In this document: positions 71-37,087 of the stretch, one piece after another
Numbering within the stretch: the first letter of the stretch is position 1
How the letters are laid out: each line of letters begins with the position of its first letter
From: Escherichia phage saus132
DNA: 64,000 bases
Sequence record: NC_047884.1
Reading direction: 5' to 3' (one strand)
The notes under the pieces: generated by a model
The model's database searches: none
What the model was told of the DNA's origin: nothing
Seen by the model: only the letters and a program-made list of their open reading frames with translations
Program-made: the position numbers and the translations under genes

Positions 71-75
71 GAATT

Positions 76-154
76 TGGTGGAGAATAACGGAATCGAACC
101 GTTCTGATGTCCTCGGTGCAAGCGAGGTGTCCACTCCATGCAGACCCATTCCCC
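76..154 (-). tRNA. tRNA-like gene, anticodon UGC (Ala-type G3:U70), atypical G8 and 7-nt variable loop
   Basis: Minus strand: acceptor GGGGAAT/ATTCTCC, anticodon arm CCTCG-CTTGCAC-CGAGG, T arm AACGG-TTCGATT-CCGTT, encoded CCA. Confidence 0.45.
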
Positions 155-488
155 AAAATCTTTAAGTTTACTAAGGCTATTAGCTCGGTGTGCGTATTAC
201 CCTCAGACATTATCCAGTAGAGGATAACCGCTCTTCACAAACCCGATACACTATTCAGTTGCCGCTGAATCTAGTGGACTAATCTAGAACTTCTCCCGAG
301 TCGTAGGGATCGTGCTTTTTGGCAGCCAGTCCTAGGTCGAGCTAATACCTTAGTGAACTAAATTGATGGATATCAGACTAATTTTGCTACGGCGTTTATC
401 CTGAGGATCTCTTTTTCGGTAGCTCTGCTAGTGTAGACGTCATACACCTGATATCTAGGCAGCTATTTTCACATCAATTTATATAAAT

Positions 489-517
489 ATTATAACAAGA
501 AATTAAGCATTAAGCAA
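489..517 (-). promoter_or_regulatory. sigma70-type early promoter with conserved downstream UTR; drives ORF-free region and tRNA-Ala genes
   Basis: Minus strand -35 TTGCTT, 17-bp spacer, -10 TATAAT. Confidence 0.55.
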
Positions 518-869
518 GTACATTTTTAGCGATTTCTTGTAGTTCCTTAACGTCGCTAACGAAAAGGTAATCAGAGCTTCCAGAGTGCATACTCTGCATA
601 ACCACACCACCATCCGGTGCATCTTCTTTCAAAGTAATACCTAACCAGAACTTGGCAAAACTAGGTGTTACCTCACCTTGACTTGCCTTGAACACATCGC
701 CTTCTGTGATCTCTTGACCAGTGGAGAGTCCCATGTATGGTACGTTCAGATCAATATCTTTGTAGAACTCAGCTAGATCTTGCTCGAAATCCCAACCTTT
801 AGAGATAGCGAACTCCATTGTTACATGACCGAAATAGCCTTGAACCTTGCTTGATAATTGCATTTGCAA
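510..869 (-). CDS. hypothetical protein (119 aa)
   Basis: Clean ORF on the strand of flanking tRNA genes; no recognisable motif. Confidence 0.5.
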   Translation of the reverse strand: MQMQLSSKVQGYFGHVTMEFAISKGWDFEQDLAEFYKDIDLNVPYMGLSTGQEITEGDVFKASQGEVTPSFAKFWLGITLKEDAPDGGVVMQSMHSGSSDYLFVSDVKELQEIAKNVLA

Positions 870-888
870 TTCCTTATTTTGAGTTAAT

Positions 889-962
889 TGGTACTCGGTG
901 ATAGAATCGAACTATCGCAACCGCCGTGTAAAGACGGGGTTCTCCCATTAAACTAACCGAGC
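889..962 (-). tRNA. tRNA-Val (UAC)
   Basis: Acceptor GCTCGGT/ACCGAGT, anticodon arm CCGTC-TTTACAC-GGCGG, T arm GATAG-TTCGATT-CTATC, CCA encoded. Confidence 0.6.
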
Positions 963-1095
963 AAAAGACGTCCTATAATATAGGCTTCAACTACAAATTC
1001 ACAGAAACCTGCTAAAAACATACCTATTGTAAAATCGGCAGAGAATACATAGGAATCTTTTATTTTCTGCTTCATTAAGTAAAACCAGATAGTCA

Positions 1096-1413
1096 TTAAA
1101 ATCTCTCCATTCTAAAGCCAATGAAGTAAGGTGCATTACATGGAACATGCTTAAGATCTTTAAGAGTAATTTTACGTCCTAAGCGTCGTTCCATACAAGT
1201 GAAACATAGAACAATATCTTTGGGCTGCTCTTTTCTTATCTGATCCCAGACCCAATCTTCAACCATACACATTTCATGGTATTGTTCACAGTCTCGACAA
1301 TAGTGACACTGATGTTCTGGTACTTTTTGATTTTTAATACACAGTTCAGTAAAGCGTTTTCCGGCTCTGCCAGACATTTCTGATATTGTTTCTAGAACTT
1401 TGTTAATATTCAT
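1096..1413 (-). CDS. Cys/His-rich small protein (105 aa), probable zinc binding
   Basis: ORF with HxCHYCxxC and CFTC clusters. Confidence 0.5.
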   Translation of the reverse strand: MNINKVLETISEMSGRAGKRFTELCIKNQKVPEHQCHYCRDCEQYHEMCMVEDWVWDQIRKEQPKDIVLCFTCMERRLGRKITLKDLKHVPCNAPYFIGFRMERF

Positions 1414-1430
1414 AACAAATTCCTTTAAAT

Positions 1431-1509
1431 TGGTAGACCGCCTGGGACTCGAACCCAGAACCTTCCGGTTAAAAGCCGGGTGCTGCTAAACCAATTGAGC
1501 TAGCGATCT
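1431..1509 (-). tRNA. tRNA-Lys (UUU)
   Basis: Acceptor AGATCGC/GCGGTCT, anticodon loop CTTTTAA, T arm CTGGG-TTCGAGT-CCCAG, CCA encoded. Confidence 0.7.
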
Positions 1510-1511
1510 AT

Positions 1512-1676
1512 TTAGTACATATATACTTCTTTAATAGAGTAGACTTTTAAGTAAGGATGATTAATACCAAATTCCGCCATCACTTCGTTTTCATCTTTAC
1601 CGTAATGGGCTAGTGGATACTTCTTACGATCTTTGCTAGAACGTAGATCACTTACTTTTAAGCGAAATAATTTCAT
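1512..1676 (-). CDS. small hypothetical protein (54 aa)
   Basis: ATG with weak SD between two tRNA genes; hand-translated MKLFRLKVSDLRSSKDRKKYPLAHYGKDENEVMAEFGINHPYLKVYSIKEVYMY; below track cutoff. Confidence 0.3.
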   Translation of the reverse strand: MKLFRLKVSDLRSSKDRKKYPLAHYGKDENEVMAEFGINHPYLKVYSIKEVYMY

Positions 1677-1697
1677 TTCGAAATCCTTCTATTAAAT

Positions 1698-1775
1698 TGG
1701 AAGCGGGTGTAGGAATCGAACCTACCTCTTTCTAGCTTATGAGACTAGCGATCTCTACCAGAGATCTAACCCGCA
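1698..1775 (-). tRNA. tRNA with CAU anticodon (Met or Ile2)
   Basis: D stem GATC/GATC, anticodon arm CTAGT-CTCATAA-GCTAG, T arm GTAGG-TTCGATT-CCTAC, CCA encoded; 1-72 pair imperfect. Confidence 0.55.
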
Positions 1776-1781
1776 ATTGTT

Positions 1782-1859
1782 TGGTCTCCGTGGGAGGATT
1801 TGAACCCCCGACCCTACCGCCCCAAACGGAACGCTCTGGCCAAACTGAGCTACACGGAG
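1782..1859 (-). tRNA. tRNA-Pro (UGG)
   Basis: Acceptor CTCCGTG/CACGGAG, anticodon loop TTTGGGG (G37), T arm GGGGG-TTCAAAT-CCTCC, CCA encoded; one U-U mismatch in anticodon stem. Confidence 0.55.
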
Positions 1860-2336
1860 AATATTATCTTTTTAACCATAGTAAGGTTATACCTAACATG
1901 GTAAATCCAGTACCCAGCCCAATACTTTTTTCTATGAAATTGAAGGTATCAGTATTGACTGCGGTAATTAGTATAGGTATAGACCATAGTACCATGAATA
2001 CTTGAGCTATCTTATATTTCACTTTGCTTTCCTTCTTAACATTTTATAAGATATATTATACAGAGAATTAAGCAAAGTAGCAAATGAATTTTTAATAAAT
2101 TTACTTATTGCGTAGGCCACCTGGAGGGTTCAAGCCCCACGGCTGACAAAGAAGTTTGCGAGACTTCTCTTAAACGCCAGAATAGACCCGCCGATCTATC
2201 GGAACCTACTCAATAAGTAAACTTTCATTTACTTACACCTACCTGGTCGGGAGGATTTTCAGCGACTAGAACCGGCCGGAAACTCATCGCCTTGTTTATC
2301 TAGGAGTCCGTTCTCTAGGAAGCAGAAACCTAAATT

Positions 2337-2410
2337 TGGTGCGGTCGGAGGGAATCGAACCCTCAACTTCTGGTTGGCAACCAAAAATTATACCTTTTAA
2401 CTACGAACGC
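2337..2410 (-). tRNA. tRNA-Gly (GCC)
   Basis: Anticodon arm TTTGG-TTGCCAA-CCAGA, T arm GAGGG-TTCGATT-CCCTC, CCA encoded. Confidence 0.65.
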
Positions 2411-2608
2411 ATAATAAGTCAATCTAGGCAGGACTTGAACCTGCTATCACTTGTGCGGATTTACGAGAACCATTCTTTCACTCGAATCGAACGAGCTTCT
2501 ACCCTCGGCAAGCTGGTGTCCCCTCTCCACCACGCTAGAATGTTTGATAAAGAGTCCGGTGTAGCAATCCGTAAGGGTGCACCTACTGTAGCCTTTACTC
2601 TTTAAATT

Positions 2609-2685
2609 TGGTACACCCACTAGGACTTGAACCTAGAACCCTCCGCTTAAGAGGCGGTAGCTCTAACCATTGAGCTATGGATGTA
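2609..2685 (-). tRNA. tRNA with anticodon CUU (Lys-decoding); identity uncertain
   Basis: Acceptor ACATCCA/TGGGTGT, D stem GCTC/GAGC, anticodon arm ACCGC-CTCTTAA-GCGGA (27-43 mismatch), T arm CTAGG-TTCAAGT-CCTAG, CCA encoded. Confidence 0.5.
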
Positions 2686-2690
2686 TTATT

Positions 2691-2767
2691 TGGCGCGACC
2701 GATGGGATTCGAACCCACATTCTCTCCCGTGACAGGGGAGTACCATTACCAAGCCAGCCCCGATCGC
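2691..2767 (-). tRNA. tRNA-Asp (GUC)
   Basis: Acceptor GCGATCG/CGGTCGC, anticodon arm CTCCC-CTGTCAC-GGGAG, T arm GTGGG-TTCGAAT-CCCAT, CCA encoded. Confidence 0.75.
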
Positions 2768-2776
2768 ATAATTTGT

Positions 2777-2962
2777 TTACTCAGCTTTGAGTTTTTCGAT
2801 AGCTTCCTCAACCTCTTTTAGAGCTTCACGACGTGCATTCTGTTGCTGCATATCTTGAATTAATGTCAGTTTTTGGTTTTCAATTTCTTGATCCCAAACC
2901 TTAATATTATTAATCAGACTATCACGATCAGCTTCTAGTCGAGCAATTGCACGAGTTGTCAT
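2777..2962 (-). CDS. small coiled-coil protein (61 aa)
   Basis: ORF immediately upstream of a tRNA block, same strand. Confidence 0.4.
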   Translation of the reverse strand: MTTRAIARLEADRDSLINNIKVWDQEIENQKLTLIQDMQQQNARREALKEVEEAIEKLKAE

Positions 2963-3065
2963 ATCTATTTCCTCAGTTGTTAATGAAAAATGGTATCTGT
3001 GACTGAATTCGATATCAGCAATGATAGCTGGTTGGCTACCGGTTTACTTAACTCTACACAGAATT

Positions 3066-3143
3066 TGGCGGTTCCTGCTGGATTCGAACCAGCAACCCTC
3101 AACTTAACAAGATGCCGCTCTAACCAATTAGAGCTAAGGAACC
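3066..3143 (-). tRNA. tRNA-Asn (GUU)
   Basis: Acceptor GGTTCCT/AGGAACC, D stem GCTC/GAGC, anticodon loop TTGTTAA, T arm GCTGG-TTCGAAT-CCAGC; anticodon stem has mismatches. Confidence 0.55.
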
Positions 3144-3638
3144 ATATAAGTCAGAACTAGAGTTAATACGTTCTAGATATTTACTAAGATCCCTAGAATT
3201 TATACTAAACCACTCATGTTCTTTTAAGTCTTTGAAATATTGGTGAATTTGTTTTTCACCTTTTCGTTTGTCAAACCAAAACGACCAATGCTCTAGTTTA
3301 TAGTCCCTATAAGGACTATAAGTTTGATACTGAGCTAATCTCTCTTTTGGATTTTGACTCATACCTATTTTATACTGGTTTTTCCATGCAGGATTACTGA
3401 TACAGTATACAAAACCTTCAGAAATAGGAAGCTTATTTTCCTGTTTAAACTTTATAAAGGAAAGTGCGGCAAGTTTCCTCGAATACAGAGTATTTGTATT
3501 CTTTTTGGTATTACCACTGGTTCCTGAAAGATTTATATACTCTTCCATAAATCTTTGGATTAGTTCTGTGGTTATGTAGAAAGGCTCATTAGTAACAATG
3601 CCTTTCTCTACCAAGCTGTCAAAAACTTTTGTATGCAC
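3120..3638 (-). CDS. T5orf172-domain (GIY-YIG-like) protein, 172 aa
   Basis: Motif GFVYCISNP...YKIGMSQNPKERLAQY matches the T5orf172 consensus as recalled; 3' end overlaps tRNA-Asn by about 24 nt. Confidence 0.55.
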   Translation of the reverse strand: MHTKVFDSLVEKGIVTNEPFYITTELIQRFMEEYINLSGTSGNTKKNTNTLYSRKLAALSFIKFKQENKLPISEGFVYCISNPAWKNQYKIGMSQNPKERLAQYQTYSPYRDYKLEHWSFWFDKRKGEKQIHQYFKDLKEHEWFSINSRDLSKYLERINSSSDLYGSLALIG

Positions 3639-3659
3639 TACTTCTTTCCTTTAGTAATT

Positions 3660-3734
3660 TGGAGCATCCTGTTGGAATTGAACCAACCTAGACGATTTTG
3701 CAGACCGTCACCTAAGCCACTCGGACAAGGATGC
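3660..3734 (-). tRNA. tRNA-Cys (GCA)
   Basis: Acceptor GCATCCT/AGGATGC, anticodon arm ACGGT-CTGCAAA-ATCGT, T arm GTTGG-TTCAATT-CCAAC, CCA encoded. Confidence 0.65.
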
Positions 3735-3737
3735 AAA

Positions 3738-4010
3738 TTAATCTACTTCACACATATCATCATAGCCACAAGTTGGGCATTCCCAATGACATTCGTCATG
3801 CTCACCGCATTGAGCACATTCATAAATCTTTGGCTTTTCAACTTCTTCTAGATTAATAAATTCTAGATCATCGAAGTTACCAATGGATCTGGCATAGTAA
3901 CCATCGCCTGCGTCATAACCTGATTTACCACACTCACACATCTTAAACTCACGCAGATGTGTGAAGATATGTTCAGAGCCACAACACTTAAATTTAACTA
4001 ACTTTTTCAT
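3738..4010 (-). CDS. Cys-rich zinc-ribbon protein (90 aa)
   Basis: Several CxxC pairs (CCGSEH, CECG, CAQCG, CPTCG); early promoter immediately upstream. Confidence 0.5.
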   Translation of the reverse strand: MKKLVKFKCCGSEHIFTHLREFKMCECGKSGYDAGDGYYARSIGNFDDLEFINLEEVEKPKIYECAQCGEHDECHWECPTCGYDDMCEVD

Positions 4011-4038
4011 TTGCTTCTCCAGTTCAATTTATGTAATA

Positions 4039-4067
4039 ATTATACAGAACTTTAAGCGGTTAAGCAA
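4039..4067 (-). promoter_or_regulatory. early promoter cassette
   Basis: Minus strand -35 TTGCTT, 17 bp, -10 TATAAT. Confidence 0.55.
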
Positions 4068-4347
4068 CTACATTTTTCAGAAATATGATGCCTTTCTTTT
4101 TCTTCTTATACTTCCACGTTAACGGGTTCTGTCGATTATGAACGCTTGAGATCTTTGTCTCGTCAAAGTTCTTCAATACCATGTAATCACAGGCCAACTG
4201 TTCTAGTGGAATGTGATCTCCGTCAAAAGCGTAAACGTAAGGCTGTTGACTGGCACGATAATGATAGACTTTGTTAATTCTGCGTTTCAGTGACTTATCC
4301 GCACAGTAAATAAAGAAGTTTTCAGGATGCATCAGCATCTCCTTCAA
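4060..4347 (-). CDS. hypothetical protein (95 aa)
   Basis: ORF; no recognisable motif. Confidence 0.45.
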   Translation of the reverse strand: MKEMLMHPENFFIYCADKSLKRRINKVYHYRASQQPYVYAFDGDHIPLEQLACDYMVLKNFDETKISSVHNRQNPLTWKYKKKKKGIIFLKNVVA

Positions 4348-4349
4348 AT

Positions 4350-4424
4350 TGGTGCACCCTGTTCGAATTGAACGAACCTCTCAAGCTCTTCAGGCAAGCG
4401 CTAATCCATCTCAGCTAAAGGTGC
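4350..4424 (-). tRNA. tRNA-Phe (GAA)
   Basis: Acceptor GCACCTT/AGGGTGC, D stem GCTG/TAGC, anticodon loop CTGAAGA, T arm GTTCG-TTCAATT-CGAAC; two U-U mismatches in anticodon stem. Confidence 0.55.
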
Positions 4425-4430
4425 AAATAT

Positions 4431-4508
4431 TGGCAAACCTACTAGGACTCGAACCTAGACCGTACGGTTTTGGAGACCGACATGCTGTCCAGTAACACTC
4501 TAGGAATG
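4431..4508 (-). tRNA. tRNA-Trp (CCA); acceptor stem poorly paired
   Basis: Anticodon arm TCGGT-CTCCAAA-ACCGT, T arm CTAGG-TTCGAGT-CCTAG, CCA encoded; 5' boundary approximate. Confidence 0.45.
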
Positions 4509-4515
4509 CAGAAAT

Positions 4516-4592
4516 TGGCGTCCTGTGCGGGGATCGAACCCGCAAATCCTACCTTGAAAGGGTAGTGACTTTACCAGTTTGTCTAACAGGAC
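4516..4592 (-). tRNA. tRNA-Glu (UUC)
   Basis: Acceptor GTCCTGT/ACAGGAC, anticodon arm CTACC-CTTTCAA-GGTAG, T arm GCGGG-TTCGATC-CCCGC, CCA encoded. Confidence 0.8.
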
Positions 4593-4599
4593 TTAAATT

Positions 4600-4690
4600 T
4601 GGTGTTGGATGATGGAGTCGAACCACCCGAGACCCTTCCGAGTCGGCAGATTTACAGTCTACTTCGCTACCTCTACGATACTAATCCAAC
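4600..4690 (-). tRNA. tRNA-Tyr (GUA), long variable arm
   Basis: Acceptor GTTGGAT/ATCCAAC, anticodon arm GTAGA-CTGTAAA-TCTGC, long variable arm, T arm GGTGG-TTCGACT-CCATC, 91 nt with CCA. Confidence 0.75.
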
Positions 4691-4814
4691 ATATTTGAAT
4701 GAAAAGTAAGTCGGTTAAACTCAAGGTGGAATATTTCAGGATTTCCTGACTTTACCCCTAAAAGCAACTCGCTTAATTACTTCTCATTCAGATATGTTTC
4801 CAAATTAGATAAAT

Positions 4815-4843
4815 ATTATATCAAGTTTTAAGGCACTGAGCAA
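4815..4843 (-). promoter_or_regulatory. promoter for tRNA block Tyr-Glu-Trp-Phe; -35 overlaps a 12-bp-stem hairpin (4833-4871)
   Basis: Minus strand -35 TTGCTC, 17 bp, -10 TATAAT; inverted repeat GCACTGAGCAAG/CTTGCTCAGTGC. Confidence 0.5.
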
Positions 4844-4879
4844 GTCAAATTTTAAAGAACTTGCTCAGTGCTGTATCAG

Positions 4880-5173
4880 TTAATCAAATGAAGGAGTGAC
4901 TTTCAAAGTGAATGGAAGTTCGAATACCTCTTCACCTTCATCAGTAACAGTGACTACTCGACCCTCTAGCTTATTCATGCTGATTTCAACATCAGCCGTA
5001 GCATCAGGAGCCATACCAGCCTCAATACATTGAGCTTTGATCTCTGGAAGAAGTTCTACATTGTAGAAATAAAGCCACTCGATCTCACCTTCCCAACCAC
5101 CCCAGGATTTACATACTGAGCTTTCAATACCAGTTGCTGCAAAACGTTTTAACATTCTGATTCCTCTCATCAA
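4880..5173 (-). CDS. hypothetical protein (97 aa)
   Basis: ORF downstream of early promoter cassette. Confidence 0.5.
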   Translation of the reverse strand: MMRGIRMLKRFAATGIESSVCKSWGGWEGEIEWLYFYNVELLPEIKAQCIEAGMAPDATADVEISMNKLEGRVVTVTDEGEEVFELPFTLKVTPSFD

Positions 5174-5184
5174 CTTATATAACT

Positions 5185-5214
5185 ATTATAGCAGAAATCT
5201 TAAGCAAAAAGCAA
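5185..5214 (-). promoter_or_regulatory. early promoter cassette
   Basis: Minus strand -35 TTGCTT, 18 bp, -10 TATAAT. Confidence 0.5.
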
Positions 5215-5244
5215 GTACATTTTTAAAATTTCTGCTTGGAGGAG

Positions 5245-5517
5245 TTAAACTCCTGATTCTTCAGCCAGATCAAGCCCAACCAATGTGATTGCCATAATAG
5301 CCGCGCCATGTTCTTTCTCTCCTAGCTCTTTGGCTTGAGTGAGAATATTGAGGAATTGCTTTTGAAAATCTGCAACTTCTTCTGTCATGCCTGCTTCAGC
5401 AATAATTCCTTTCAGCATAAAGCGTTGTGCCGTAATTTCAGGATTAGCCATTTGTTTTCTCCAGTTATTTAGAATGTAAGCCAAACTTAGGATCATAGCG
5501 ATCGTAAGTAGTACCAT
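5245..5517 (-). CDS. hypothetical protein (90 aa)
   Basis: ORF; hydrophobic N-terminal segment. Confidence 0.45.
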   Translation of the reverse strand: MVLLTIAMILSLAYILNNWRKQMANPEITAQRFMLKGIIAEAGMTEEVADFQKQFLNILTQAKELGEKEHGAAIMAITLVGLDLAEESGV

Positions 5518-5602
5518 TAGTTGAAGCCTTGATGCTATGAAAACGACAATACATAAATTTACGCAGTGCTTTCTTAATAGCTTTCATTTTATTTCCTTAA
5601 TT

Positions 5603-5679
5603 TGGTAGGGGTGGTGGGATTCGAACCCACAAAACCTGAATTTTAAGTCCAGTACCTATGCCAATTCGATTACACCCCC
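5603..5679 (-). tRNA. tRNA with anticodon UAA (Leu-decoding) but short variable loop (type I)
   Basis: Acceptor GGGGGTG/CACCCCT, A73, anticodon arm CTGGA-CTTAAAA-TTCAG, T arm GTGGG-TTCGAAT-CCCAC, CCA encoded. Confidence 0.55.
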
Positions 5680-5687
5680 ATGTAATC

Positions 5688-6041
5688 TTAGCGAATCTCT
5701 AAACCCTGGAAATATCGAGGGAATGGAGAGCCAACTTCAAAATTGATGCCCCAGTTAAGTTCAACGAGTTCAGATTTATTAAGATCTAGGCCATTACCTT
5801 CAAAGATATAGCCGTAAACCGCAGGGAACATAGCTGCTAGATCTTCCATATCGGAATGAGCATTGTGTTCTTCACGTAACTGCTCAAACTCTTCAAAGAA
5901 CTTTTCTAGGAAGAACTCAGGTACGATGAACGTTACCACATCAGTAGAATCATCAGTACGATACACCGTAGCTTGGAACAAGCCAACACCTAAAAGGTTT
6001 ATTGCCGGAGTAGTAAAAATATCCATCTTAACCTCGCTCAA
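5688..6041 (-). CDS. hypothetical protein (117 aa)
   Basis: ORF; no recognisable motif. Confidence 0.45.
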   Translation of the reverse strand: MSEVKMDIFTTPAINLLGVGLFQATVYRTDDSTDVVTFIVPEFFLEKFFEEFEQLREEHNAHSDMEDLAAMFPAVYGYIFEGNGLDLNKSELVELNWGINFEVGSPFPRYFQGLEIR

Positions 6042-6213
6042 TGTCTAGAGAAATACCACATTCAGGATTAATACCAGAACCATTACAATATGTACAAACG
6101 TATGTATTATACCGTGTATCACCGGGTTCAGCATCGTTCCACTCACCTACTCCGAAGCATTTTGGGCAGGCACACTCTTCTAGCTCTTGCTTGAGTTCTT
6201 GAAATTTGGACAT
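6028..6213 (-). CDS. small zinc-finger protein (61 aa)
   Basis: CPKCFGVGEW and CTYCNGSG resemble DnaJ-type CxxCxGxG zinc finger repeats. Confidence 0.45.
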   Translation of the reverse strand: MSKFQELKQELEECACPKCFGVGEWNDAEPGDTRYNTYVCTYCNGSGINPECGISLDIERG

Positions 6214-6221
6214 ATAGTCTC

Positions 6222-6410
6222 CTAGTTAATTACTTTTGAGGCTTCTAAAGCATTGACGTAGTAAACGTCTTCTACTTTATACATATAGTCTACTACTTTG
6301 TCCATAGCATGTAGTTCAGATGTAGCCTTTACTAGTCTGTACCCTTGTTTAAACTCGTCCGAATGTTCTCTATCTTGTGCAAATTTAACAGAAACTATGA
6401 ATAATTCCAT
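6222..6410 (-). CDS. hypothetical protein (62 aa)
   Basis: ORF; no recognisable motif. Confidence 0.4.
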   Translation of the reverse strand: MELFIVSVKFAQDREHSDEFKQGYRLVKATSELHAMDKVVDYMYKVEDVYYVNALEASKVIN

Positions 6411-6429
6411 TAGTTGTCCTTATTTAATT

Positions 6430-6507
6430 TGGTGGCTCCCGGAGGATTCGAACCTACCTACCTTTCGCTTATGAGGCGACGGCTCATACCAAATGAGCTT
6501 GAGAACC
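6430..6507 (-). tRNA. tRNA with CAU anticodon (Met or Ile2), second copy
   Basis: Acceptor GGTTCTC/GGGAGCC, D stem GCTC/GAGC, anticodon arm GTCGC-CTCATAA-GCGAA, T loop TTCGAAT, CCA encoded. Confidence 0.6.
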
Positions 6508-6512
6508 AAATT

Positions 6513-6606
6513 TGGAGGAAGATGCCAGATTCGAACTGGCACACCGTGTCTCCACAGCTACTGGCTGTTTAGCAAACAGCTCCCTTACCTTTAGGGTTAA
6601 TCTTCC
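6513..6606 (-). tRNA. tRNA-Ser (GCU), long variable arm
   Basis: Acceptor GGAAGAT/ATCTTCC, anticodon arm GCTGT-TTGCTAA-ACAGC, long variable arm, T arm GCCAG-TTCGAAT-CTGGC, 94 nt with CCA. Confidence 0.8.
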
Positions 6607-6622
6607 AAATTTATGAATATAT

Positions 6623-6650
6623 TATATTAGAAATTTAGCTTCATGGCAAG
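6623..6650 (-). promoter_or_regulatory. promoter driving tRNA-Ser and tRNA(CAU)
   Basis: Minus strand -10 TATAAT plus conserved UTR-like sequence; -35 TTGCCA at suboptimal spacing. Confidence 0.45.
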
Positions 6651-7028
6651 AAAATTTTTCAAGTTTTCTGTATTCATTTCATCTAAATCCATGAGGGAAG
6701 TAAACCCATTTAGTTTTTTAGCAAAATTCTCACCAGCAGAATCATTATCGCCTACGGCTACTACTTTAAAAGGTTGTAATTTTAGCTGCTTTAGCAATGC
6801 TTTGCTAGGGGAAGATCCTAGCATTGCTAGTGCGGGATATCCCGCGTTGTGTAGTGCCACAGCTTTAAATACAGATTCTGCAACTAATACTAGGTCTTCA
6901 TTACCTGTAAGAGTTTCTAAACCCCATAGACATTGAGTAGAAGAATGCGTAAAATATTTAGCTTCAGAAGGACATTTTCCATGACCTTTAGCTGCACTAG
7001 GGTTATATGTTTGATATCCACGTAACAT
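6627..7028 (-). CDS. Toprim-domain protein (133 aa from first ATG); frame stays open upstream to an in-frame TAA at 7113-7115 that follows a 10-codon ATG-initiated leader
   Basis: Toprim-like Glu (LVLVAESVF) and DxD (VVAVGDNDSAGE) motifs; promoter and strong SD lie upstream of the ATG at 7143, not of the ATG at 7028. Confidence 0.5.
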   Translation of the reverse strand: MLRGYQTYNPSAAKGHGKCPSEAKYFTHSSTQCLWGLETLTGNEDLVLVAESVFKAVALHNAGYPALAMLGSSPSKALLKQLKLQPFKVVAVGDNDSAGENFAKKLNGFTSLMDLDEMNTENLKNFLAMKLNF

Positions 7029-7176
7029 GCCAGAGAAATCATACAGTGGAACTGTTAACCATCCATGTGGAGAGAGCCAACAGTGATACTTATCACTATC
7101 AAAGCCCCTAGATTAAAGATGTTGTTTTAACTCGTCAACAGTCATATATGACTCCTATCTATAATTTATAGAATAT

Positions 7177-7205
7177 ATTATATAGAAAATTTCGGCATTA
7201 AGCAA
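7177..7205 (-). promoter_or_regulatory. early promoter cassette upstream of Toprim-gene leader
   Basis: Minus strand -35 TTGCTT, 17 bp, -10 TATAAT. Confidence 0.6.
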
Positions 7206-7213
7206 GTGAAATT

Positions 7214-7510
7214 TTACTGAACACTGCACTGATACACTTGTTTGATACGTGTCACTGACTTCTTAGTTGGATTGATAGAAGAACCTTGCCACCAACGTGA
7301 TTCTGAGCTGAGAACAGCACCAGGAACAGCTTGTTCTTTTGGCAGAACAATATCAAAACATTGCTCACCCATATTATCTTTAATGTGTGACCAAATATCC
7401 AAAGTAAATCGTTCTAGCTTATTACAAACTTGAACTTGACAAAGTTCCTGTTGTGGAGCAGCAAATACAGAAGTAGATACTAGAGTCAATGCAAGTACAA
7501 TGCGTTTCAT
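7214..7510 (-). CDS. small secreted protein (98 aa) with cleavable signal peptide
   Basis: MKRIVLALTLVSTSVFAAPQQ signal-like N-terminus; start moved to ATG after SD GAGAGAGG (track start is a TTG inside the UTR). Confidence 0.5.
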   Translation of the reverse strand: MKRIVLALTLVSTSVFAAPQQELCQVQVCNKLERFTLDIWSHIKDNMGEQCFDIVLPKEQAVPGAVLSSESRWWQGSSINPTKKSVTRIKQVYQCSVQ

Positions 7511-7540
7511 ATTTGATTCCTCTCTCAAATTTATAAATAT

Positions 7541-7569
7541 ATTATACAGAAATTTTCTATATTAAGCAA
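7541..7569 (-). promoter_or_regulatory. early promoter cassette
   Basis: Minus strand -35 TTGCTT, 17 bp, -10 TATAAT, then ATATATTTATAAATTTGAGAGAGG UTR with SD. Confidence 0.65.
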
Positions 7570-7616
7570 GTGAAAATTTCTGTATAATAGCCCTCTAAGC
7601 GAGGGCTATAACTACT

Positions 7617-8309
7617 TTATTTGTTAACGCGTACAAAGTATCCTTTATAGGCTCCCATAATAGAGTTACCTAAGAATACTAGCCACATTGCTAGGATTGC
7701 ATAAGATGCACCTGTAGATTGAGCAGTTACAAGCCAAATGTATACAGTACCAATGTTAATAGCAATCCAGATCAGCCATTGTTCAGCATATTGTTTGACC
7801 ATAAGCCACATAGCAATCACACTACCAACCGCAGTAAATGCGTCAAGCATTGGGAATGGATCAGCGGTAGTAGCAAGGAAGCTGCCGTAACCTAAAGTAG
7901 CTACTGCTAGAATCCCTAGAGTCAGCAGAGCTTGGGCTTTAGTCAGAACCTTAGTTGGAACATCTGGCAGATTACTTGGCTTATTTTTATGCCATAAGTA
8001 CATTCCATAAAACTGCATAGGAACGTAGTATAGCAGGTTTAGTGCAGCGTTACCATAAAGATCTGCGTTTAAAGCTGTAATACCATATGTAAGAACACCC
8101 ACTAAGCCCCAAATATAGTTGGAAACACGTCCTTTTGCAACCAGAATAACACAAACCACATTGGTTATTGCAGTAGCCCAATCTAGAGCTGTACCATTAT
8201 AGTTTGCTAAACTAATGAAGACAACCGCTATGAACAGCCACAGATATTCCAGAGGTTTCCAGTTTTTAAAGTCATTTACGAGATAGTTAGTCATATTAAA
8301 ACTCTCCAA
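7617..8309 (-). CDS. pnuC: PnuC-like nicotinamide riboside transporter (230 aa)
   Basis: Size and multi-helix hydrophobic profile typical of PnuC; directly downstream of and overlapping the NadR-like gene. Confidence 0.65.
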   Translation of the reverse strand: MESFNMTNYLVNDFKNWKPLEYLWLFIAVVFISLANYNGTALDWATAITNVVCVILVAKGRVSNYIWGLVGVLTYGITALNADLYGNAALNLLYYVPMQFYGMYLWHKNKPSNLPDVPTKVLTKAQALLTLGILAVATLGYGSFLATTADPFPMLDAFTAVGSVIAMWLMVKQYAEQWLIWIAINIGTVYIWLVTAQSTGASYAILAMWLVFLGNSIMGAYKGYFVRVNK

Positions 8310-9351
8310 CGTTAAAGTGATGAATCAGCCAGTCTACTGCGTTTACTGCTTCGTCCATACGAACTTTGTAGTCCGGGGAGTCGATGTAAACAGTACGCCC
8401 TTCAGGGAACTGATTTGGAAATTCTTTCTTCATCTGCTCGAACAGTTCAGAAGTAATTGAACGATCGGAGTTAATACGTAAACCATCATCTACCCACTTG
8501 ACAGTAGGCGCTAGAACAATTACTAAATCGTAATGTTCTTCTTTTGCAATTGCTGTAACCACAGGGTTCTTACTATGTTCATAAAGTCTGTGGTAGAACT
8601 CAGTAATAAAAGCATTTGTATCCACAAACATGATCTTATTTGCAGTACGTTCTGCTTCAAACTCTAGCTCTTTGTGTCTGAACGCAATTTTACTATAGTC
8701 TTCGCTGGTAAGCAGATTTTCGTTACCAACTAGATCAACTTCACAATACGTTCGGCCATATTCTTCTACCCACGAAGTGTTGTATAGCTTCGCAAGGTAT
8801 TTTGTTAAAGTAGTCTTTCCTGAGCTTTCAGTCCCAATGATTACAACCTTACGCACGTAATCTTTACGAACTACGCTAGGAAGAAACTCCCAATACTTCA
8901 TAAGATCATTACGAATCATTGTAGCTGAGATTGGAACACGAGTCCGATCAGAATCTACAATATAATGACCAAACTTCGGCAGATATTTCTTATATTCTGC
9001 ATCATAGTCTAGTTCGCTAGAGAAAATGGTGATCTCAGGCAAATGTCCGTAATTTTCATTAAGGATTCTAGCATATTCCGGCCAACCATTCGGATATTCA
9101 GGAATATCATCTTCAATAGTGTACTCTACCGAAATGTGCTCAATATCCGCGTAAGTTTGTTCTAACCAACGAAGTCGATTCTTTAACTGTAATACTTCCT
9201 GATCACGTGTGTTCTGCTTATCCAACCAACGATTATCATGACTAACTACAACAATAACTCGTTCACACATAGTTGCTGCTGTGTTTATTAGGTTAATATG
9301 ACCACGCGTTAATGGTGCGAACTTACCAATTACTAGACCAGTCTTAATCAT
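8296..9351 (-). CDS. nadR: NadR-like bifunctional NMN adenylyltransferase / ribosylnicotinamide kinase
   Basis: N-terminal GKFAPLTRGH nucleotidyltransferase motif; C-terminal P-loop GTESSGKTTL; start taken at ATG after SD, not the track start inside the promoter. Confidence 0.75.
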   Translation of the reverse strand: MIKTGLVIGKFAPLTRGHINLINTAATMCERVIVVVSHDNRWLDKQNTRDQEVLQLKNRLRWLEQTYADIEHISVEYTIEDDIPEYPNGWPEYARILNENYGHLPEITIFSSELDYDAEYKKYLPKFGHYIVDSDRTRVPISATMIRNDLMKYWEFLPSVVRKDYVRKVVIIGTESSGKTTLTKYLAKLYNTSWVEEYGRTYCEVDLVGNENLLTSEDYSKIAFRHKELEFEAERTANKIMFVDTNAFITEFYHRLYEHSKNPVVTAIAKEEHYDLVIVLAPTVKWVDDGLRINSDRSITSELFEQMKKEFPNQFPEGRTVYIDSPDYKVRMDEAVNAVDWLIHHFNVGEF

Positions 9352-9381
9352 ATTTGATTCCTCTCTCAAATTTATAAATAT

Positions 9382-9410
9382 ATTATACAGAGAATTTAGC
9401 ATTCAAGCAA
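9382..9410 (-). promoter_or_regulatory. early promoter cassette for nadR-pnuC operon
   Basis: 29-nt block identical to the cassette at 7541; -35 TTGCTT, 17 bp, -10 TATAAT. Confidence 0.65.
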
Positions 9411-9562
9411 TCGAATTTTTTAACTTTTTAGTGGAAAAAATCTCAAGGCATTTAGTGGTAGCACGTTGTTGCTACAATAATAGTATATGATTCTAAAGAA
9501 TTAAAGAATTAAATACTAAAGACCTTAGTTGAATAACTTATGGGCTTTTCTTTTGCCTTAAA

Positions 9563-9601
9563 TACAGAAAAGCCCGCGCTCTCGGAGGAAACGCGGGCTT
9601 A
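9563..9601 (-). terminator. rho-independent terminator after SPFH gene
   Basis: GC-rich hairpin AAGCCCGCG...CGCGGGCTT then U-run on minus strand. Confidence 0.7.
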
Positions 9602-9623
9602 TTTCGAAGATTACGTGTAACTA

Positions 9624-10568
9624 TTACTTATTACGCATATCCATAATCATCTGGCCATCATAACCAGTACCTACAACAGTCTGAGGAACGCCACCCTGAT
9701 ATTTTTCAGCGCGTTTCATATCAACTTCCAGCTGTTTCCAGCGAATCATCTCTGGAGTGATGGTACGCTGCAGAGCGGTGTTAGCTTCAGCTTCTTTCTT
9801 AGCCGCATACAGTTTAGCATCTGCGTCACGTTCGTTAGCTACTGCCATATTTTCACGAGCAGAACGATCAGCCTCAGCTTGCTTAACTTTCTGCTGTGCT
9901 TCTTGTTCAACACGAGCTAGTTCAGCTTTTGCAGCGTTAACTTGTTCTTCACGAACTTTGGTGTTTTGTACCTGTTCCATGATTACCGGTGGCAGAGTAA
10001 TATCCTGAAGGAATACTTGCTTAACGGTGTAGCCATAAGGACGCGCATACTCTTCTACTTCTTGCTGAATAGCGGTTTGCAGTTGAGCCTGAATCTTAGC
10101 GTCGAACAGATCTTGTGCTTTTGGTACAGACTTACCAAACTCACGAATCGTAGACAGCATCTTCTCTTCAACGTACTTGTTCAGAGCTTGATCCTGAGTA
10201 CCTGCGTTAACACGGTTCATAGGAGCTTTAGCACCATCAAACTGCAACATAACGGTAATGTCAACTGTAGACTTAAACTTATCCTGGCTAGGAACCTGAA
10301 GTTTATCCAGTTTCATAGAAATATCTTTCGTACTAAAAGTATCAAAAGAGGCGAATGGGTTGACAATATGGAACCCCGGCAATACAGGATTAGGACTAAC
10401 TTTACCCAGGAAAGTCTGAGTTTTAACCGTACCGTCCTGAACAACTGTATAGGAATTGAGAGCCAGAATAAGAGCGCCAAGACCAACTACAGCACCAACA
10501 CCCCAACGTTTAATAGTACGAATTACTTTTTGATCGGAAGTCAGTTCTTTAGTGTTTTTAGTAAACAT
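9624..10568 (-). CDS. SPFH/band-7 (HflK/C, prohibitin-like) membrane protein
   Basis: N-terminal TM helix, central SPFH-like region, C-terminal Ala/Glu/Gln-rich coiled coil; rho-independent terminator downstream. Confidence 0.6.
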   Translation of the reverse strand: MFTKNTKELTSDQKVIRTIKRWGVGAVVGLGALILALNSYTVVQDGTVKTQTFLGKVSPNPVLPGFHIVNPFASFDTFSTKDISMKLDKLQVPSQDKFKSTVDITVMLQFDGAKAPMNRVNAGTQDQALNKYVEEKMLSTIREFGKSVPKAQDLFDAKIQAQLQTAIQQEVEEYARPYGYTVKQVFLQDITLPPVIMEQVQNTKVREEQVNAAKAELARVEQEAQQKVKQAEADRSARENMAVANERDADAKLYAAKKEAEANTALQRTITPEMIRWKQLEVDMKRAEKYQGGVPQTVVGTGYDGQMIMDMRNK

Positions 10569-10579
10569 ATATTTCCTTA

Positions 10580-10780
10580 TTATTTAGAAGAGTTAGCTAC
10601 TACAGTTACTTTAGTTGCAGAAATAAACAGGCTAGCATCCACAGCAAATTCAGGAGCTTTGATATCTCCGTTATGAAATATGACTATACCGGAGACTACT
10701 TCAAATGCTAGCGCTGTAACATCGGTGGTATTTACTTGTGAATGTTCACCTACTACTTTTACTATATATCGTGTTTTCAC
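10580..10780 (-). CDS. hypothetical protein (66 aa)
   Basis: Short ORF between SPFH gene and tRNA-Arg. Confidence 0.35.
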   Translation of the reverse strand: MKTRYIVKVVGEHSQVNTTDVTALAFEVVSGIVIFHNGDIKAPEFAVDASLFISATKVTVVANSSK

Positions 10781-10806
10781 TTTATTTTCCTAGCAGTTAA
10801 TAAAAT

Positions 10807-10881
10807 TGGCCGAGGTGACAGGATTCGAACCTGCATAAAGGAATTTAGAAGACTCCTGCCTATCCCTTAGACTACACCCCG
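10807..10881 (-). tRNA. tRNA-Arg (UCU)
   Basis: Acceptor CGGGGTG/CACCTCG, anticodon arm GGAGT-CTTCTAA-ATTCC, T arm GCAGG-TTCGAAT-CCTGT, CCA encoded. Confidence 0.7.
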
Positions 10882-11740
10882 TTTAGGTATTTTTAAGAAC
10901 TCTTATAAAAGCTCTTAAAGATACCCGACGGTAGGTAGGGTCAGCCCCCTCAGATTAAGCTCTGCAGCCCTTCCGTCAGACAATATCTTCCAGTTTAAGT
11001 CAGGGTGACTTTGTGGTTATGTTCTCCGTATGTGAAGAACTCGGTTAGGCTTAGGTCATGACTCCCAGCCTACTGCTGCCGCTCAACAGGAATTATCGCG
11101 AATTACCTGTACTATTGGGCACCATTAGTGACATCTCTCATGTCAGCGTTTCCCACTCTCATATTCACGCGGTCTGTTAGAATCGCACCTCCGATTTTCG
11201 ATGCGAAGCTGGATGCCTAGTCTCAGGTTAAACGGGGCACACACTAGGCAGTGATCCCGAGTTCCGAGTTTGGTTGAGGCCGTCAGGTTTCCTCGTGGTT
11301 TAGCTGTTTCGATTCTAACCTAATACTGATCAGGTGGCGTACCTCCTGAACTGTCATAGTATGTACTCCAGCAGCGAATGCTTATCCGGTATAAGCCCGA
11401 GTTATCTGATTCTTTCCGACCGCAGGATTCGAACCTGCATCTTCCACCAGTTACGGTTTGATATTACCGTTTATACTAGGACGGCAGTGTTATCACATAA
11501 GTCAGTTCGACACCCCACTAACATAAACTAGAGAAGAGTTTACGAGATTTCGGGACAGCTCCCGAGTTTTCCGCAGATTTTCAGTTCCCTATCAATAGCA
11601 ATAAGCGTTAGCTCGTAGCCTCTCTCAGAGTACTTACTAGTCTCCAACTCACCGACTCTATTCAGTGGAATAGCTATCCTAGTAGGAATCACTAAACTCA
11701 CTCAGCGTAATCGGCTCGCTGTTCTCTAATTTATGAATCT

Positions 11741-11769
11741 ATTATACAGAATTTTGAGGCGTTTAGCAA
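11741..11769 (-). promoter_or_regulatory. early promoter facing an 860-nt ORF-free region and tRNA-Arg
   Basis: Minus strand -35 TTGCTA, 17 bp, -10 TATAAT. Confidence 0.6.
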
Positions 11770-11777
11770 ATCAATTT

Positions 11778-12221
11778 TTAATTAAATTCGCCAGCAACCT
11801 GAGCAGCAATGCCACCGTCGTAACGACCAGGAAACTCTTCCTTAATCGCTTTCATCAGCATACCTTTTGTAATCCCAGGGTTCAACTTAACTAATTCTGC
11901 AAAGTATTTGCGAATCTCAGAATCAGATAACTGAGGCGGCAGATACTGTTGTAGCCATTTGTTCAGTATATACTCATACTGAGCAGACTGCAAGCTATAA
12001 TTATCAAGGTCTTGACCGTGAAGTTTAGCTTTCGTCTGATTAATGCTTTTCAGTTGAGCTTTTAGATAAGATACAAACTGTTCAGAAGTAATGAAGTCTT
12101 TATCAACACGCTGAAGATCTCCGATTATGGTCTGGTAGCTTTTAGCTACTTCTTTATCAGAACCATCAACCTTAGATTCCTGCAAAGCCCTACGCAAAAC
12201 ATCTAGAATATTCTCTTCCAT
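11778..12221 (-). CDS. hypothetical protein (147 aa)
   Basis: ORF; no recognisable motif. Confidence 0.5.
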   Translation of the reverse strand: MEENILDVLRRALQESKVDGSDKEVAKSYQTIIGDLQRVDKDFITSEQFVSYLKAQLKSINQTKAKLHGQDLDNYSLQSAQYEYILNKWLQQYLPPQLSDSEIRKYFAELVKLNPGITKGMLMKAIKEEFPGRYDGGIAAQVAGEFN

Positions 12222-12259
12222 TATTTAATTCCCAGTGCTTGGTTAAAAGATTGTTCTGT

Positions 12260-12391
12260 CATAACTGCCGAGACTTTAGCGAAATCAAACTTCTTAGGGT
12301 TTGTAGTAATTTCAGCAACGTTAGTAGTTTTAACTGTTTTCGTAGTACGGATACCACGAGTATTAACACCAATAATTACAACTGATTTCAT
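12260..12391 (-). CDS. small hypothetical protein (43 aa)
   Basis: ATG with SD GAGAGGAAG directly downstream of early promoter 12423-12451; hand-translated; below track cutoff. Confidence 0.3.
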
Positions 12392-12422
12392 ATTTCGCTT
12401 CCTCTCATTAATTTATGAAAGT

Positions 12423-12451
12423 ATTATACAGAAATTTAAGGCTTTAAGCAA
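12423..12451 (-). promoter_or_regulatory. early promoter cassette
   Basis: Minus strand -35 TTGCTT, 17 bp, -10 TATAAT. Confidence 0.6.
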
Positions 12452-12459
12452 TCGAATTT

Positions 12460-12927
12460 TTAAGTTTTCTTAACCACAGGCTTGTAGAATGTATGGCCTT
12501 GAATCTTCGTTGTTTTCTTAAACTTCTTTGTCCAGTACGGTTTATCTTTACCACTATGGAAGTATAACGCTCCATGTGTTGGATCTTGTGGTAAATCAAC
12601 GTAGTATATCACTCTAGCTAAATTCTTAGCAACTTGCCAAGCCTCATCGGTTTTATCAACTTTTGGTCTCCTGGCCACCCAAGAGAACTGGTTAGACTGA
12701 TATACTACTTTACAGTAAGAATCAGGAAAAGTACCAGAGTTAACACGGTTTTTAGTAACCTGTGCAACTGCGATCATTCCTTTAGTGCCCTCACCTCGTG
12801 CTTCGAAGTAGATATTTTTTGCAATGCAATCAATCTGCTTTGAGTCGTAGGTCGCATGACTATTGAAGCTATAGGTTAGGGCAGCTATTAAAAGCAAAGC
12901 TGCCTTCATTTTATTTACTCCGGCCAA
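12460..12927 (-). CDS. secreted cell-wall hydrolase, SleB/CwlJ-like
   Basis: Signal peptide MKAALLLIAALTYSFNSHA; NIYFEARGE motif characteristic of SleB-type hydrolase domain. Confidence 0.55.
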   Translation of the reverse strand: MAGVNKMKAALLLIAALTYSFNSHATYDSKQIDCIAKNIYFEARGEGTKGMIAVAQVTKNRVNSGTFPDSYCKVVYQSNQFSWVARRPKVDKTDEAWQVAKNLARVIYYVDLPQDPTHGALYFHSGKDKPYWTKKFKKTTKIQGHTFYKPVVKKT

Positions 12928-37070: not shown

Positions 37071-37087
37071 GTATTTGGGATATGTAA

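What the first reader, a model, noticed from the sequence alone, without database searches (positions are those of the whole stretch)
7617..9410. Phage-borne NAD+ salvage operon: NadR-like enzyme plus PnuC-like transporter
Seen in sequence: one promoter cassette drives a protein with nucleotidyltransferase motif GKFAPLTRGH and P-loop GTESSGKTT (NadR-type NMNAT plus ribosylnicotinamide kinase), then an overlapping 230-aa polytopic membrane protein of PnuC size. Established knowledge: PnuC imports nicotinamide riboside and NadR converts it to NMN and NAD+. Inference: the phage can rebuild NAD+ during infection, which could feed its NAD-dependent ligase and counter NAD-depleting abortive-infection systems, similar in principle to described NAD-reconstitution anti-defence pathways but using a different route. 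Whether this module is standard in T5 or an accessory here cannot be decided without comparison.
Basis: partly seen in the sequence, partly recalled or inferred. Interest (0 to 1): 0.55.

Follow-up and report, generated by a model that had tools for sequence, protein, structure and literature searches.

The report
Known phage NAD+ rebuilding module (NARP3)

Summary
On the minus strand, one T5-type early promoter cassette (9420..9348) precedes a 351-aa NadR-like gene (9351..8296). That protein has an NMN adenylyltransferase domain and a ribosylnicotinamide kinase domain but no HTH. A 225-aa PnuC-like transporter gene follows (8294..7617).

Profile hits are very strong. The window is 100% identical over this region to the T5-like Epseptimavirus chee130_1 (MF431736), where both genes are already annotated.

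The NadR-like protein is 350/351 identical to Bas30_86 (PDB 9X6F/9X6H). The PnuC-like protein is 225/225 identical to Bas30_87 of phage TrudiRoth. Yan et al. (Sci Adv 2026, PMC13464706) showed that this pair, named NARP3, imports nicotinamide riboside, converts it to NAD+, and rescues phages from Sir2-HerA and DSR1. Osterman et al. had predicted the pathway in 2024.

New here:
- The module is accessory. T5 itself has no copy, and about half of T5-like records carry it.
- It lies in a mosaic locus bounded by repeated promoter cassettes.
- The best-supported PnuC start is an ATG one base after the NadR stop, so the genes do not overlap.
- A conserved secreted 98-aa protein next to the module also neighbours NadR/PnuC in two other phage lineages. 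Its function is unknown.

The parts
9348..9420 (-). T5-type early promoter plus RBS cassette that drives the operon. -35 TTGCTT at 9410..9405, -10 TATAAT at 9387..9382, RBS GAGAGAGGA at 9367..9359.
   Evidence: Sequence read. 89% identical to T5 37794-37910, which holds annotated promoter P15a. One of four copies of a 73-nt direct repeat. Function as a promoter is inferred from homology and was not measured.
8296..9351 (-). NadR-like bifunctional enzyme, 351 aa. N-terminal NMN adenylyltransferase domain (GKFAPLTRGH, ISATMIR) and C-terminal ribosylnicotinamide kinase domain (P-loop GTESSGKTT). No HTH domain.
   Evidence: Family hits. 350/351 identical (T78 versus I78) to Bas30_86, PDB 9X6F/9X6H. 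All 17 published site or mutated residues are conserved. The NF005988 match starts at model position 65 of 411, so the HTH is absent.
7617..8294 (-). PnuC-like nicotinamide riboside transporter, 225 aa. The ATG at 8294 lies one base after the NadR stop codon.
   Evidence: Family hits. 225/225 identical to Bas30_87. N45, Q94 and N180 are present. E 3e-32 to Neisseria mucosa PnuC 4QTN. GenBank CDS of MF431736 at 39617-40294.
7587..7609 (-). 9-bp GC-rich hairpin just after the pnuC stop, with no U-tract. Possibly a weak terminator or RNA end, so read-through into the next gene is possible.
   Evidence: RNA fold -18 kcal/mol for the 46-nt stretch folded, 7620..7575. Not flagged by the terminator scan because there is no T-run.
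9570..9600 (-). Intrinsic-terminator-like hairpin with a T-run after the upstream SPFH gene. It separates that gene from the NadR promoter.
   Evidence: Terminator scan: 12-bp stem, 7 GC pairs, T-rich tail. Aligns with the region of T5's annotated bidirectional terminator.
7214..7510 (-). orf98: a secreted-type 98-aa protein with four invariant Cys and its own copy of the promoter cassette (7507-7579). It travels with the module, but it has not been shown to be part of it.
   Evidence: = Bas30_0088, 97/98 identical. PHROG 6894, function unknown. Absent from T5. Sits next to NadR/PnuC in two other phage lineages.

Best explanation
This is a copy of the phage NAD+ reconstitution pathway NARP3, as one early-expressed transcription unit of a T5-like Epseptimavirus.

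Proposed mechanism:
1. The PnuC-like trimeric inner-membrane facilitator lets external nicotinamide riboside (NR) into the infected cell.
2. The HTH-less NadR-like enzyme traps NR by phosphorylating it to NMN in its C-terminal kinase domain.
3. The N-terminal domain adenylylates NMN to NAD+.

This refills the NAD+/NADH pool from an outside precursor. It does not depend on the host's own regulated salvage or on the ADPR and nicotinamide left by NADases. Replication can therefore continue when Sir2-HerA, DSR1 or similar NAD-depleting defences fire.

What is shown and what is inferred:
- Shown by others for identical or 1-aa-different proteins: NR binding, both enzyme steps, the crystal structure with NAD+, NAD+ restoration and phage rescue. 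All of this was done with plasmid expression and heterologous phages.
- Shown here: the identity of the genes, the conserved functional residues, the operon layout, and the accessory status.
- Inferred: early transcription from the P15a-like promoter, and that the module has the same anti-defence role in its native phage.
For: - Family membership.
- NadR-like protein is 350/351 identical to PDB 9X6F/9X6H, which are Bas30_86 alone and with NAD+.
- PnuC-like protein is 225/225 identical to Bas30_87, and the DNA of the cassette is 96.6% identical to TrudiRoth.
- All published functional residues are conserved: K10, F11, S37, E80, P84, G89, F110, S112, D115, V139, I141, K163, D164, R167, K168, E230 and D275 in the enzyme; N45, Q94 and N180 in the transporter.
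- Experimental demonstration of the pathway and of counter-defence: PMC13464706.
- Earlier prediction of a NadR+PnuC phage pathway: bioRxiv 10.1101/2024.02.11.579819.
- Operon layout: promoter cassette, 1-nt intercistronic gap and upstream terminator.
Against: - The published work itself states that NARP3 was never tested in its native phage. A native anti-defence role is therefore extrapolated.
- The pathway needs exogenous NR, whose availability in natural settings is unknown.
- About half of T5-like phages, including T5, do without the module. It is dispensable for the basic life cycle.
- The T78/I78 difference was not tested, but it is not among the reported site residues.
Confidence: 0.9

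Rival explanations
1. The module is mainly an auxiliary metabolic unit. It raises NAD+ supply for the phage's own NAD-consuming enzymes and for the heavy nucleotide metabolism of a phage that destroys host DNA. Counter-defence would be secondary. This does not exclude the best explanation.
For: - The same window encodes a Sir2-family protein (29037-29888) and a split NAD-dependent DNA ligase (37942-38913, 39116-39895).
- The module sits among early nucleotide-metabolism genes.
- NadR/PnuC pairs occur in many unrelated large phages.
Against: - T5 and about half of its relatives have the same ligase and Sir2 genes but no NadR/PnuC. The phage's own NAD consumers therefore do not require the module.
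- The only experimental phenotype on record is counter-defence.
Confidence: 0.3
2. The NadR-like protein is a transcriptional regulator, as many GenBank records name it ('NadR transcriptional regulator').
For: Annotation strings in MF431736 and other records.
Against: - The match to the full-length NadR model begins at model position 65 of 411, so the N-terminal HTH DNA-binding domain is missing.
- No HTH Pfam hit.
- The paper describes Bas30_86 as lacking the HTH.
Confidence: 0.02
3. The PnuC-like protein carries a different Pnu-family substrate (thiamine, riboflavin or a deoxynucleoside) rather than nicotinamide riboside.
For: The Pnu family includes transporters of other B-type vitamins (PMC5749112 abstract).
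Against: - The identical protein Bas30_87 binds NR with Kd about 0.66 uM. N45A, Q94A and N180A each abolish both binding and NAD+ restoration.
- It passes the PnuC equivalog model TIGR01528.
- It is paired with an NR kinase.
Confidence: 0.03

Closest known systems
NARP3 (Bas30_86/Bas30_87 of Escherichia phage TrudiRoth; Yan et al., Sci Adv 2026, PMC13464706; PDB 9X6H, 9X6F)
   Same: - Same two genes, order, spacing and flanking orf98.
- Proteins 350/351 and 225/225 identical, and DNA 96.6% identical over 2.5 kb.
- Same phage genus, Epseptimavirus.
   Different: - One substitution (T78 here, I78 in Bas30_86).
- This phage keeps a Toprim-domain gene (6627-7028) downstream of orf98 that is not annotated at that place in Bas30.
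Bacterial PnuC-NadR salvage (E. coli/Salmonella NadR NF005988; Haemophilus influenzae NadR 1LW7; Neisseria mucosa PnuC 4QTN)
   Same: - Same two-domain NMNAT+RNK enzyme and the same transporter fold family.
- E 2e-54 to 1LW7 and E 3e-32 to 4QTN.
- Same chemistry: NR -> NMN -> NAD+.
   Different: - No HTH regulator domain.
- The genes are fused into one phage operon under a strong phage promoter. In E. coli pnuC and nadR lie at separate loci.
NARP1 (Adps+Namat) and NARP2 (Nampt+Nmnat) of Osterman et al. 2024
   Same: Phage-encoded two-gene units that rebuild NAD+ to defeat NAD-depleting defences.
   Different: - A different substrate and different enzymes. NARP1 recycles ADPR plus nicotinamide, and NARP2 uses nicotinamide plus PRPP.
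- This module imports NR and includes a transporter.
- The two genes here have no Pfam or NCBIfam hit to PRPS-like or Nampt families.

Membership tests
NARP3 (phage NadR-like + PnuC-like NAD+ reconstitution pathway) | Bifunctional RNK+NMNAT NadR-like enzyme that lacks the HTH domain | tested here: met
   Both domains hit. The NF005988 match starts at model position 65. 350/351 identical to Bas30_86.
NARP3 (phage NadR-like + PnuC-like NAD+ reconstitution pathway) | PnuC-type NR transporter encoded directly next to it on the same strand, in a phage genome | tested here: met
   pnuC ATG is one base after the nadR stop. 225/225 identical to Bas30_87. The genome is a T5-like Epseptimavirus.
NARP3 (phage NadR-like + PnuC-like NAD+ reconstitution pathway) | Residues shown by mutation to be needed (enzyme K10, F11, S37, E80, P84, G89, F110, S112, D115, V139, I141, E230, D275; transporter N45, Q94, N180) | tested here: met
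   All are present at the same positions.
NARP3 (phage NadR-like + PnuC-like NAD+ reconstitution pathway) | Restores NAD+ and rescues phage from NAD-depleting defence | not testable with these tools
   Shown experimentally for the identical or 1-aa-different proteins expressed from plasmids. Not shown for any native phage.
NadR family (trifunctional regulator/NMNAT/RNK, NF005988; TIGR01526) | (T/H)xGH and ISxxxxR nucleotidyltransferase motifs, and a P-loop kinase domain | tested here: met
   TRGH at 15-18, ISATMIR at 141-147, GTESSGKTT at 173-181. NF005988 at 252.8 bits, above its cut-off of 201.
NadR family (trifunctional regulator/NMNAT/RNK, NF005988; TIGR01526) | N-terminal HTH DNA-binding (repressor) domain | tested here: not met
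   Model positions 1-64 are unmatched, and there is no HTH Pfam hit. TIGR01526 scores 270.3 bits, below its strict cut-off of 341. The protein is a NadR-like enzyme, not the trifunctional regulator.
PnuC family (PF04973, TIGR01528) | Profile score above the curated cut-offs, and a polytopic membrane protein | tested here: met
   PF04973 at 148.3 bits (cut-off 27.3) and TIGR01528 at 121.2 bits (cut-off 42.45). Hydrophobic stretches span the protein. Aligns to 4QTN over residues 10-216.
NARP1 / NARP2 | Adps (PRPS-like) + Namat, or Nampt + Nmnat enzymes | tested here: not met
   Neither gene hits PRPS-like or Nampt families. The rest of the window was not scanned for them.

The most novel reading that the evidence does not exclude
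The conserved secreted 98-aa, four-cysteine protein next to the module (orf98, window 7214-7510, = Bas30_0088, PHROG 6894) may be an unrecognised accessory partner of phage NR salvage. It might act in the periplasm on NR supply or on PnuC.

Evidence for linkage:
- It is absent from T5 together with nadR and pnuC.
- It sits directly beside NadR (with PnuC nearby) in three unrelated phage lineages.
- All three genes have diverged deeply and congruently between those lineages.
- The NARP3 paper does not mention it.

Evidence that weakens this:
- 13 of 22 viral loci that hold a homologue have no NadR/PnuC within 10 kb.
- Two genes suffice for NARP3 activity on plasmids.
- Fold searches gave no match.
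Probability: 0.15. Interest if true: 0.45.

Novelty: already known. Interest (0 to 1): 0.15.

Why it matters
NAD+ depletion is a common bacterial anti-phage strategy, and NARP3 is one of three known phage routes that undo it. This window adds no new mechanism. It does give the native genomic setting of NARP3:
- an accessory, promoter-flanked cassette present in about half of T5-like phages;
- placement in the same genome as NAD-consuming phage enzymes;
- a conserved secreted neighbour gene of unknown function.

These points matter for anyone testing NARP3 in its native phage, which the published study could not do. They also matter when choosing or engineering T5-like therapeutic phages for hosts that carry NADase defences.

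Tried and rejected
- Two literature or find calls failed because the term 'T5' is too short. I rephrased them.
- tblastn of NadR, PnuC and orf98 against the full T5 genome gave only noise (best E 0.05-0.19). T5 has no copy.
- orf98 has no Pfam hit, and its PHROG has unknown function.
- The afdb50 library was unavailable.
- Large neighbours of orf98 in NadR-less loci are ribonucleotide reductase, RNA ligase, SPFH and unknowns. None is NAD-related, which weakens the idea of a strict link.
- Rfam found only tRNAs in 5000-12500 and nothing inside the module, so a riboswitch or other known RNA element was rejected.
- The 'transcriptional regulator' annotation was rejected because the HTH is missing.
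- I guessed BASEL accession numbers to reach TrudiRoth. MZ501075, MZ501100 and MZ501108 were other phages.

Full report
**What is there**

The genes of the finding lie on the minus strand. The ORF list and the sequence show three features:
- A 351-aa protein starting at the ATG at 9351 and ending with TAA at 8298..8296.
- A 225-aa protein starting at the ATG at 8294 and ending at 7617.
- A promoter-like cassette upstream of the first gene: TTGCTT at 9410..9405, 17 nt, TATAAT at 9387..9382, then GAGAGAGGA at 9367..9359.

GKFAPLTRGH is at residues 9-18 and GTESSGKTT at 173-181. The second nucleotidyltransferase motif, ISATMIR, is at 141-147.

The ATG at 8294 is the start used in GenBank. It has a GGAG about 9 nt upstream. 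It also puts the published functional residues N45, Q94 and N180 on N, Q and N. The two genes are therefore separated by one base and do not overlap.

**Family assignment**

The first protein:
- It matches the NadR model NF005988 at 252.8 bits (cut-off 201). The match covers only model positions 65-407 of 411, so the N-terminal HTH repressor domain is missing.
- It also hits TIGR01526 (E 2e-80), Pfam AAA_28 (1e-31), CTP_transf_like (3e-07) and PHROG 3462, 'nicotinamide-nucleotide adenylyltransferase' (1.5e-153).

The second protein:
- It passes Pfam NMN_transporter (148 bits, cut-off 27) and the PnuC equivalog TIGR01528 (121 bits, cut-off 42). It also hits PHROG 1880 (3e-74).
- It aligns to Neisseria mucosa PnuC 4QTN at E 3e-32.
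- It is hydrophobic throughout.

**Where the window comes from**

Region 7400-9650 is 100% identical to the T5-like phages chee130_1, poul149 and others (MF431736 etc.; species Epseptimavirus saus132). In those records the two genes are already annotated as 'NadR transcriptional regulator' and 'PnuC-like ribosyl nicotinamide transporter'. Window coordinate = record coordinate minus 32000.

**It is the published NARP3 system**

- A search of solved structures returned PDB 9X6F/9X6H at E 8e-241, with a single difference.
- These entries are Bas30_86 alone and with NAD+, from Yan et al., Sci Adv 12:eaee9000, 12 Aug 2026 (PMC13464706).
- I fetched phage TrudiRoth (Bas30, MZ501109) and compared directly. 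NadR-like is 350/351 identical (T78 here, I78 there). PnuC-like is 225/225 identical. The next gene, Bas30_0088, is 97/98 identical. The cassette DNA is 96.6% identical over 2.5 kb.

The paper shows the following:
- Bas30_87 is a trimeric NR-binding transporter with Kd about 0.66 uM. N45A, Q94A and N180A each abolish binding.
- Bas30_86 converts NR to NMN in the kinase domain and NMN to NAD+ in the NMNAT domain.
- Co-expressing both genes restores NAD+/NADH depleted by EcSir2-HerA or AbSir2-HerA and raises T7 and lambda plating 10^3- to 10^4-fold. Neither gene alone does this.
- DSR1 is also counteracted.

Every residue named in the paper's site descriptions and mutants is conserved in the window proteins. 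The pathway had already been proposed from annotation by Osterman et al. in 2024, who listed BASEL phages with the NadR+transporter operon.

**Standard in T5, or accessory?**

Accessory.
- I assembled the whole T5 reference (NC_005859). tblastn with NadR, PnuC and orf98 gave only noise (best E 0.05-0.19).
- At the syntenic place T5 has three plus-strand genes of unknown function, T5.077-079, with promoter P12.
- The flanks align. Window 6421-7215 matches T5 37077-37866 (tRNAs, Toprim gene T5.076, promoter P15a). Window 9465-10578 matches T5 39640-40748 (terminator, SPFH/Band 7 gene T5.080).
- Across the phage collection, NadR at 90% identity or more occurs in 203 records, PnuC in 203 and orf98 in 192.
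- The flanking SPFH protein occurs at 90% identity or more in 415 records, and the DNA query touched 419 records. About half of T5-like records therefore carry the module, mostly Salmonella phages.
- The two cassettes are not mutually exclusive. Phage Sepoy has pnuC, orf98 and a T5.077 homologue side by side.

**How the locus is built**

A 73-nt promoter/RBS cassette occurs four times on the minus strand, at 6587-6659, 7143-7215, 7507-7579 and 9348-9420. The last two copies are 84% identical over the 73 nt, with a long identical 5' stretch that runs into the start codon.

This gives three consecutive transcription units, each behind a copy: nadR-pnuC, then orf98, then the Toprim gene. A terminator-like hairpin with a T-run at 9600..9570 closes the upstream SPFH gene. 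A 9-bp hairpin without a U-tract at 7609..7587 follows pnuC, so read-through into orf98 is possible.

Repeated promoter cassettes at the borders of the variable segment are a plausible substrate for cassette exchange by recombination. This is an inference. Rfam finds only tRNAs nearby and nothing within the module.

**Context relevant to NAD**

The same window encodes a Sir2-family protein (29037-29888) and the split NAD-dependent DNA ligase (37942-38913 and 39116-39895). However, T5 has the same consumers without the module, so they do not require it.

**A side observation: orf98**

orf98 (7510..7214) has a signal-peptide-like N-terminus (MKRIVLALTLVSTSVFA/AP). It also has four invariant cysteines and a nearly invariant SRW(Y/W)QGSSINPTKKSVT stretch across 46 homologues. 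There are 75 homologous clusters, all about 100 aa, with no Pfam family.

Arrangement of its homologues relative to NadR and PnuC:
- In Eneladusvirus-like jumbo phages (about 355-371 kb) the homologue lies immediately upstream of nadR-pnuC.
- In Vequintavirinae (GAP31, 4MG-like) it lies one small gene, or none, upstream of nadR, with pnuC a few genes further on.
- In T5-like phages it follows pnuC.

Pairwise identities are congruent for the three genes:

| Gene | jumbo vs Vequintavirinae | T5-like vs jumbo | T5-like vs Vequintavirinae |
|---|---|---|---|
| orf98 | 70% | 60% | 57% |
| NadR | 43% | 36% | 36% |
| PnuC | 56% | 35% | 37% |

So the linkage has survived deep divergence.

Points against a strict functional link:
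- 13 of 22 IMG/VR loci with a homologue have no NadR/PnuC within 10 kb.
- Neighbours in those loci are ribonucleotide reductase, RNA ligase, SPFH or unknown proteins.
- Two genes suffice for NARP3 activity on plasmids.
- The structure model (pLDDT 76) has no informative fold match.
- The NARP3 paper does not mention this gene or the periplasm.

I record it as a lead, not a finding.

**Verdict**

- Observation: confirmed.
- Interpretation: supported.
- Novelty: already known. The genes have been annotated in GenBank records such as MF431736, the pathway was predicted in 2024, and it was demonstrated and named NARP3 in August 2026 with essentially these exact proteins.

What remains open is the role in the native phage, which the published study could not test, and the function of orf98.

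Noticed in passing
window 7214-7510 (-), with promoter copy 7507-7579: orf98 is a secreted-type 98-aa protein with four invariant Cys (PHROG 6894, function unknown, = Bas30_0088). It is absent from T5 together with nadR and pnuC. Its homologues sit next to NadR/PnuC in Eneladusvirus-like jumbo phages and in Vequintavirinae. However, 13 of 22 viral loci with a homologue lack NadR/PnuC within 10 kb. No fold match was found.
   Followed up: partly
window 6587-6659, 7143-7215, 7507-7579, 9348-9420 (-): Four copies of a 73-nt T5-type promoter/RBS cassette bound the variable segment. T5 has T5.077-079 (plus strand, function unknown) at this place instead. Phage Sepoy has both cassettes. The locus looks like a mosaic built by cassette exchange at promoter repeats.
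   Followed up: partly
window 29037-29888 (+); 37942-38913 (+) and 39116-39895 (+): The phage encodes its own NAD+ consumers: a Sir2-family protein and an NAD-dependent DNA ligase split into two genes (adenylation+OB and HhH+BRCT). T5 has the same genes without the NAD salvage module.
   Followed up: partly
window 30192-30707 (+); 30710-31138 and 31148-31543 (+): The homologue of T5.105, which the T5 RefSeq record labels 'Sir2', hits only the HAD_SAK_2 domain (HAD domain of RNA-repair 'Swiss Army Knife' proteins). The Sir2 label on T5.105 looks wrong. Two DUF7415 proteins follow it.
   Followed up: no
window 8296-9351 (-): Many GenBank records call this protein 'NadR transcriptional regulator'. 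It lacks the HTH domain, so that name is misleading.
   Followed up: yes
window 9624-10568 (-); L017 3918-5234; L037 10400-11722: An SPFH/Band 7 membrane protein (T5.080 homologue) lies just upstream of the module. In two unrelated metagenomic phage contigs that lack NadR/PnuC nearby, an SPFH gene also lies next to, or two genes from, the orf98 homologue.
   Followed up: no
window 6627-7028 (-): A small Toprim-only protein (133 aa as the mechanical ORF; homologue of T5.076, 'DNA primase') follows orf98 under its own promoter copy. No such gene is annotated at the corresponding place in Bas30.
   Followed up: no
window 1-12500 (-): There are 18 tRNA genes on the minus strand. The NAD module sits inside the tRNA-rich early region, between tRNA-Ser (6513-6606) and tRNA-Arg (10807-10881). 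A weak extra tRNA-like Rfam hit at 11414-11485 falls in the region that aligns to T5's 'RNAX'.
   Followed up: no
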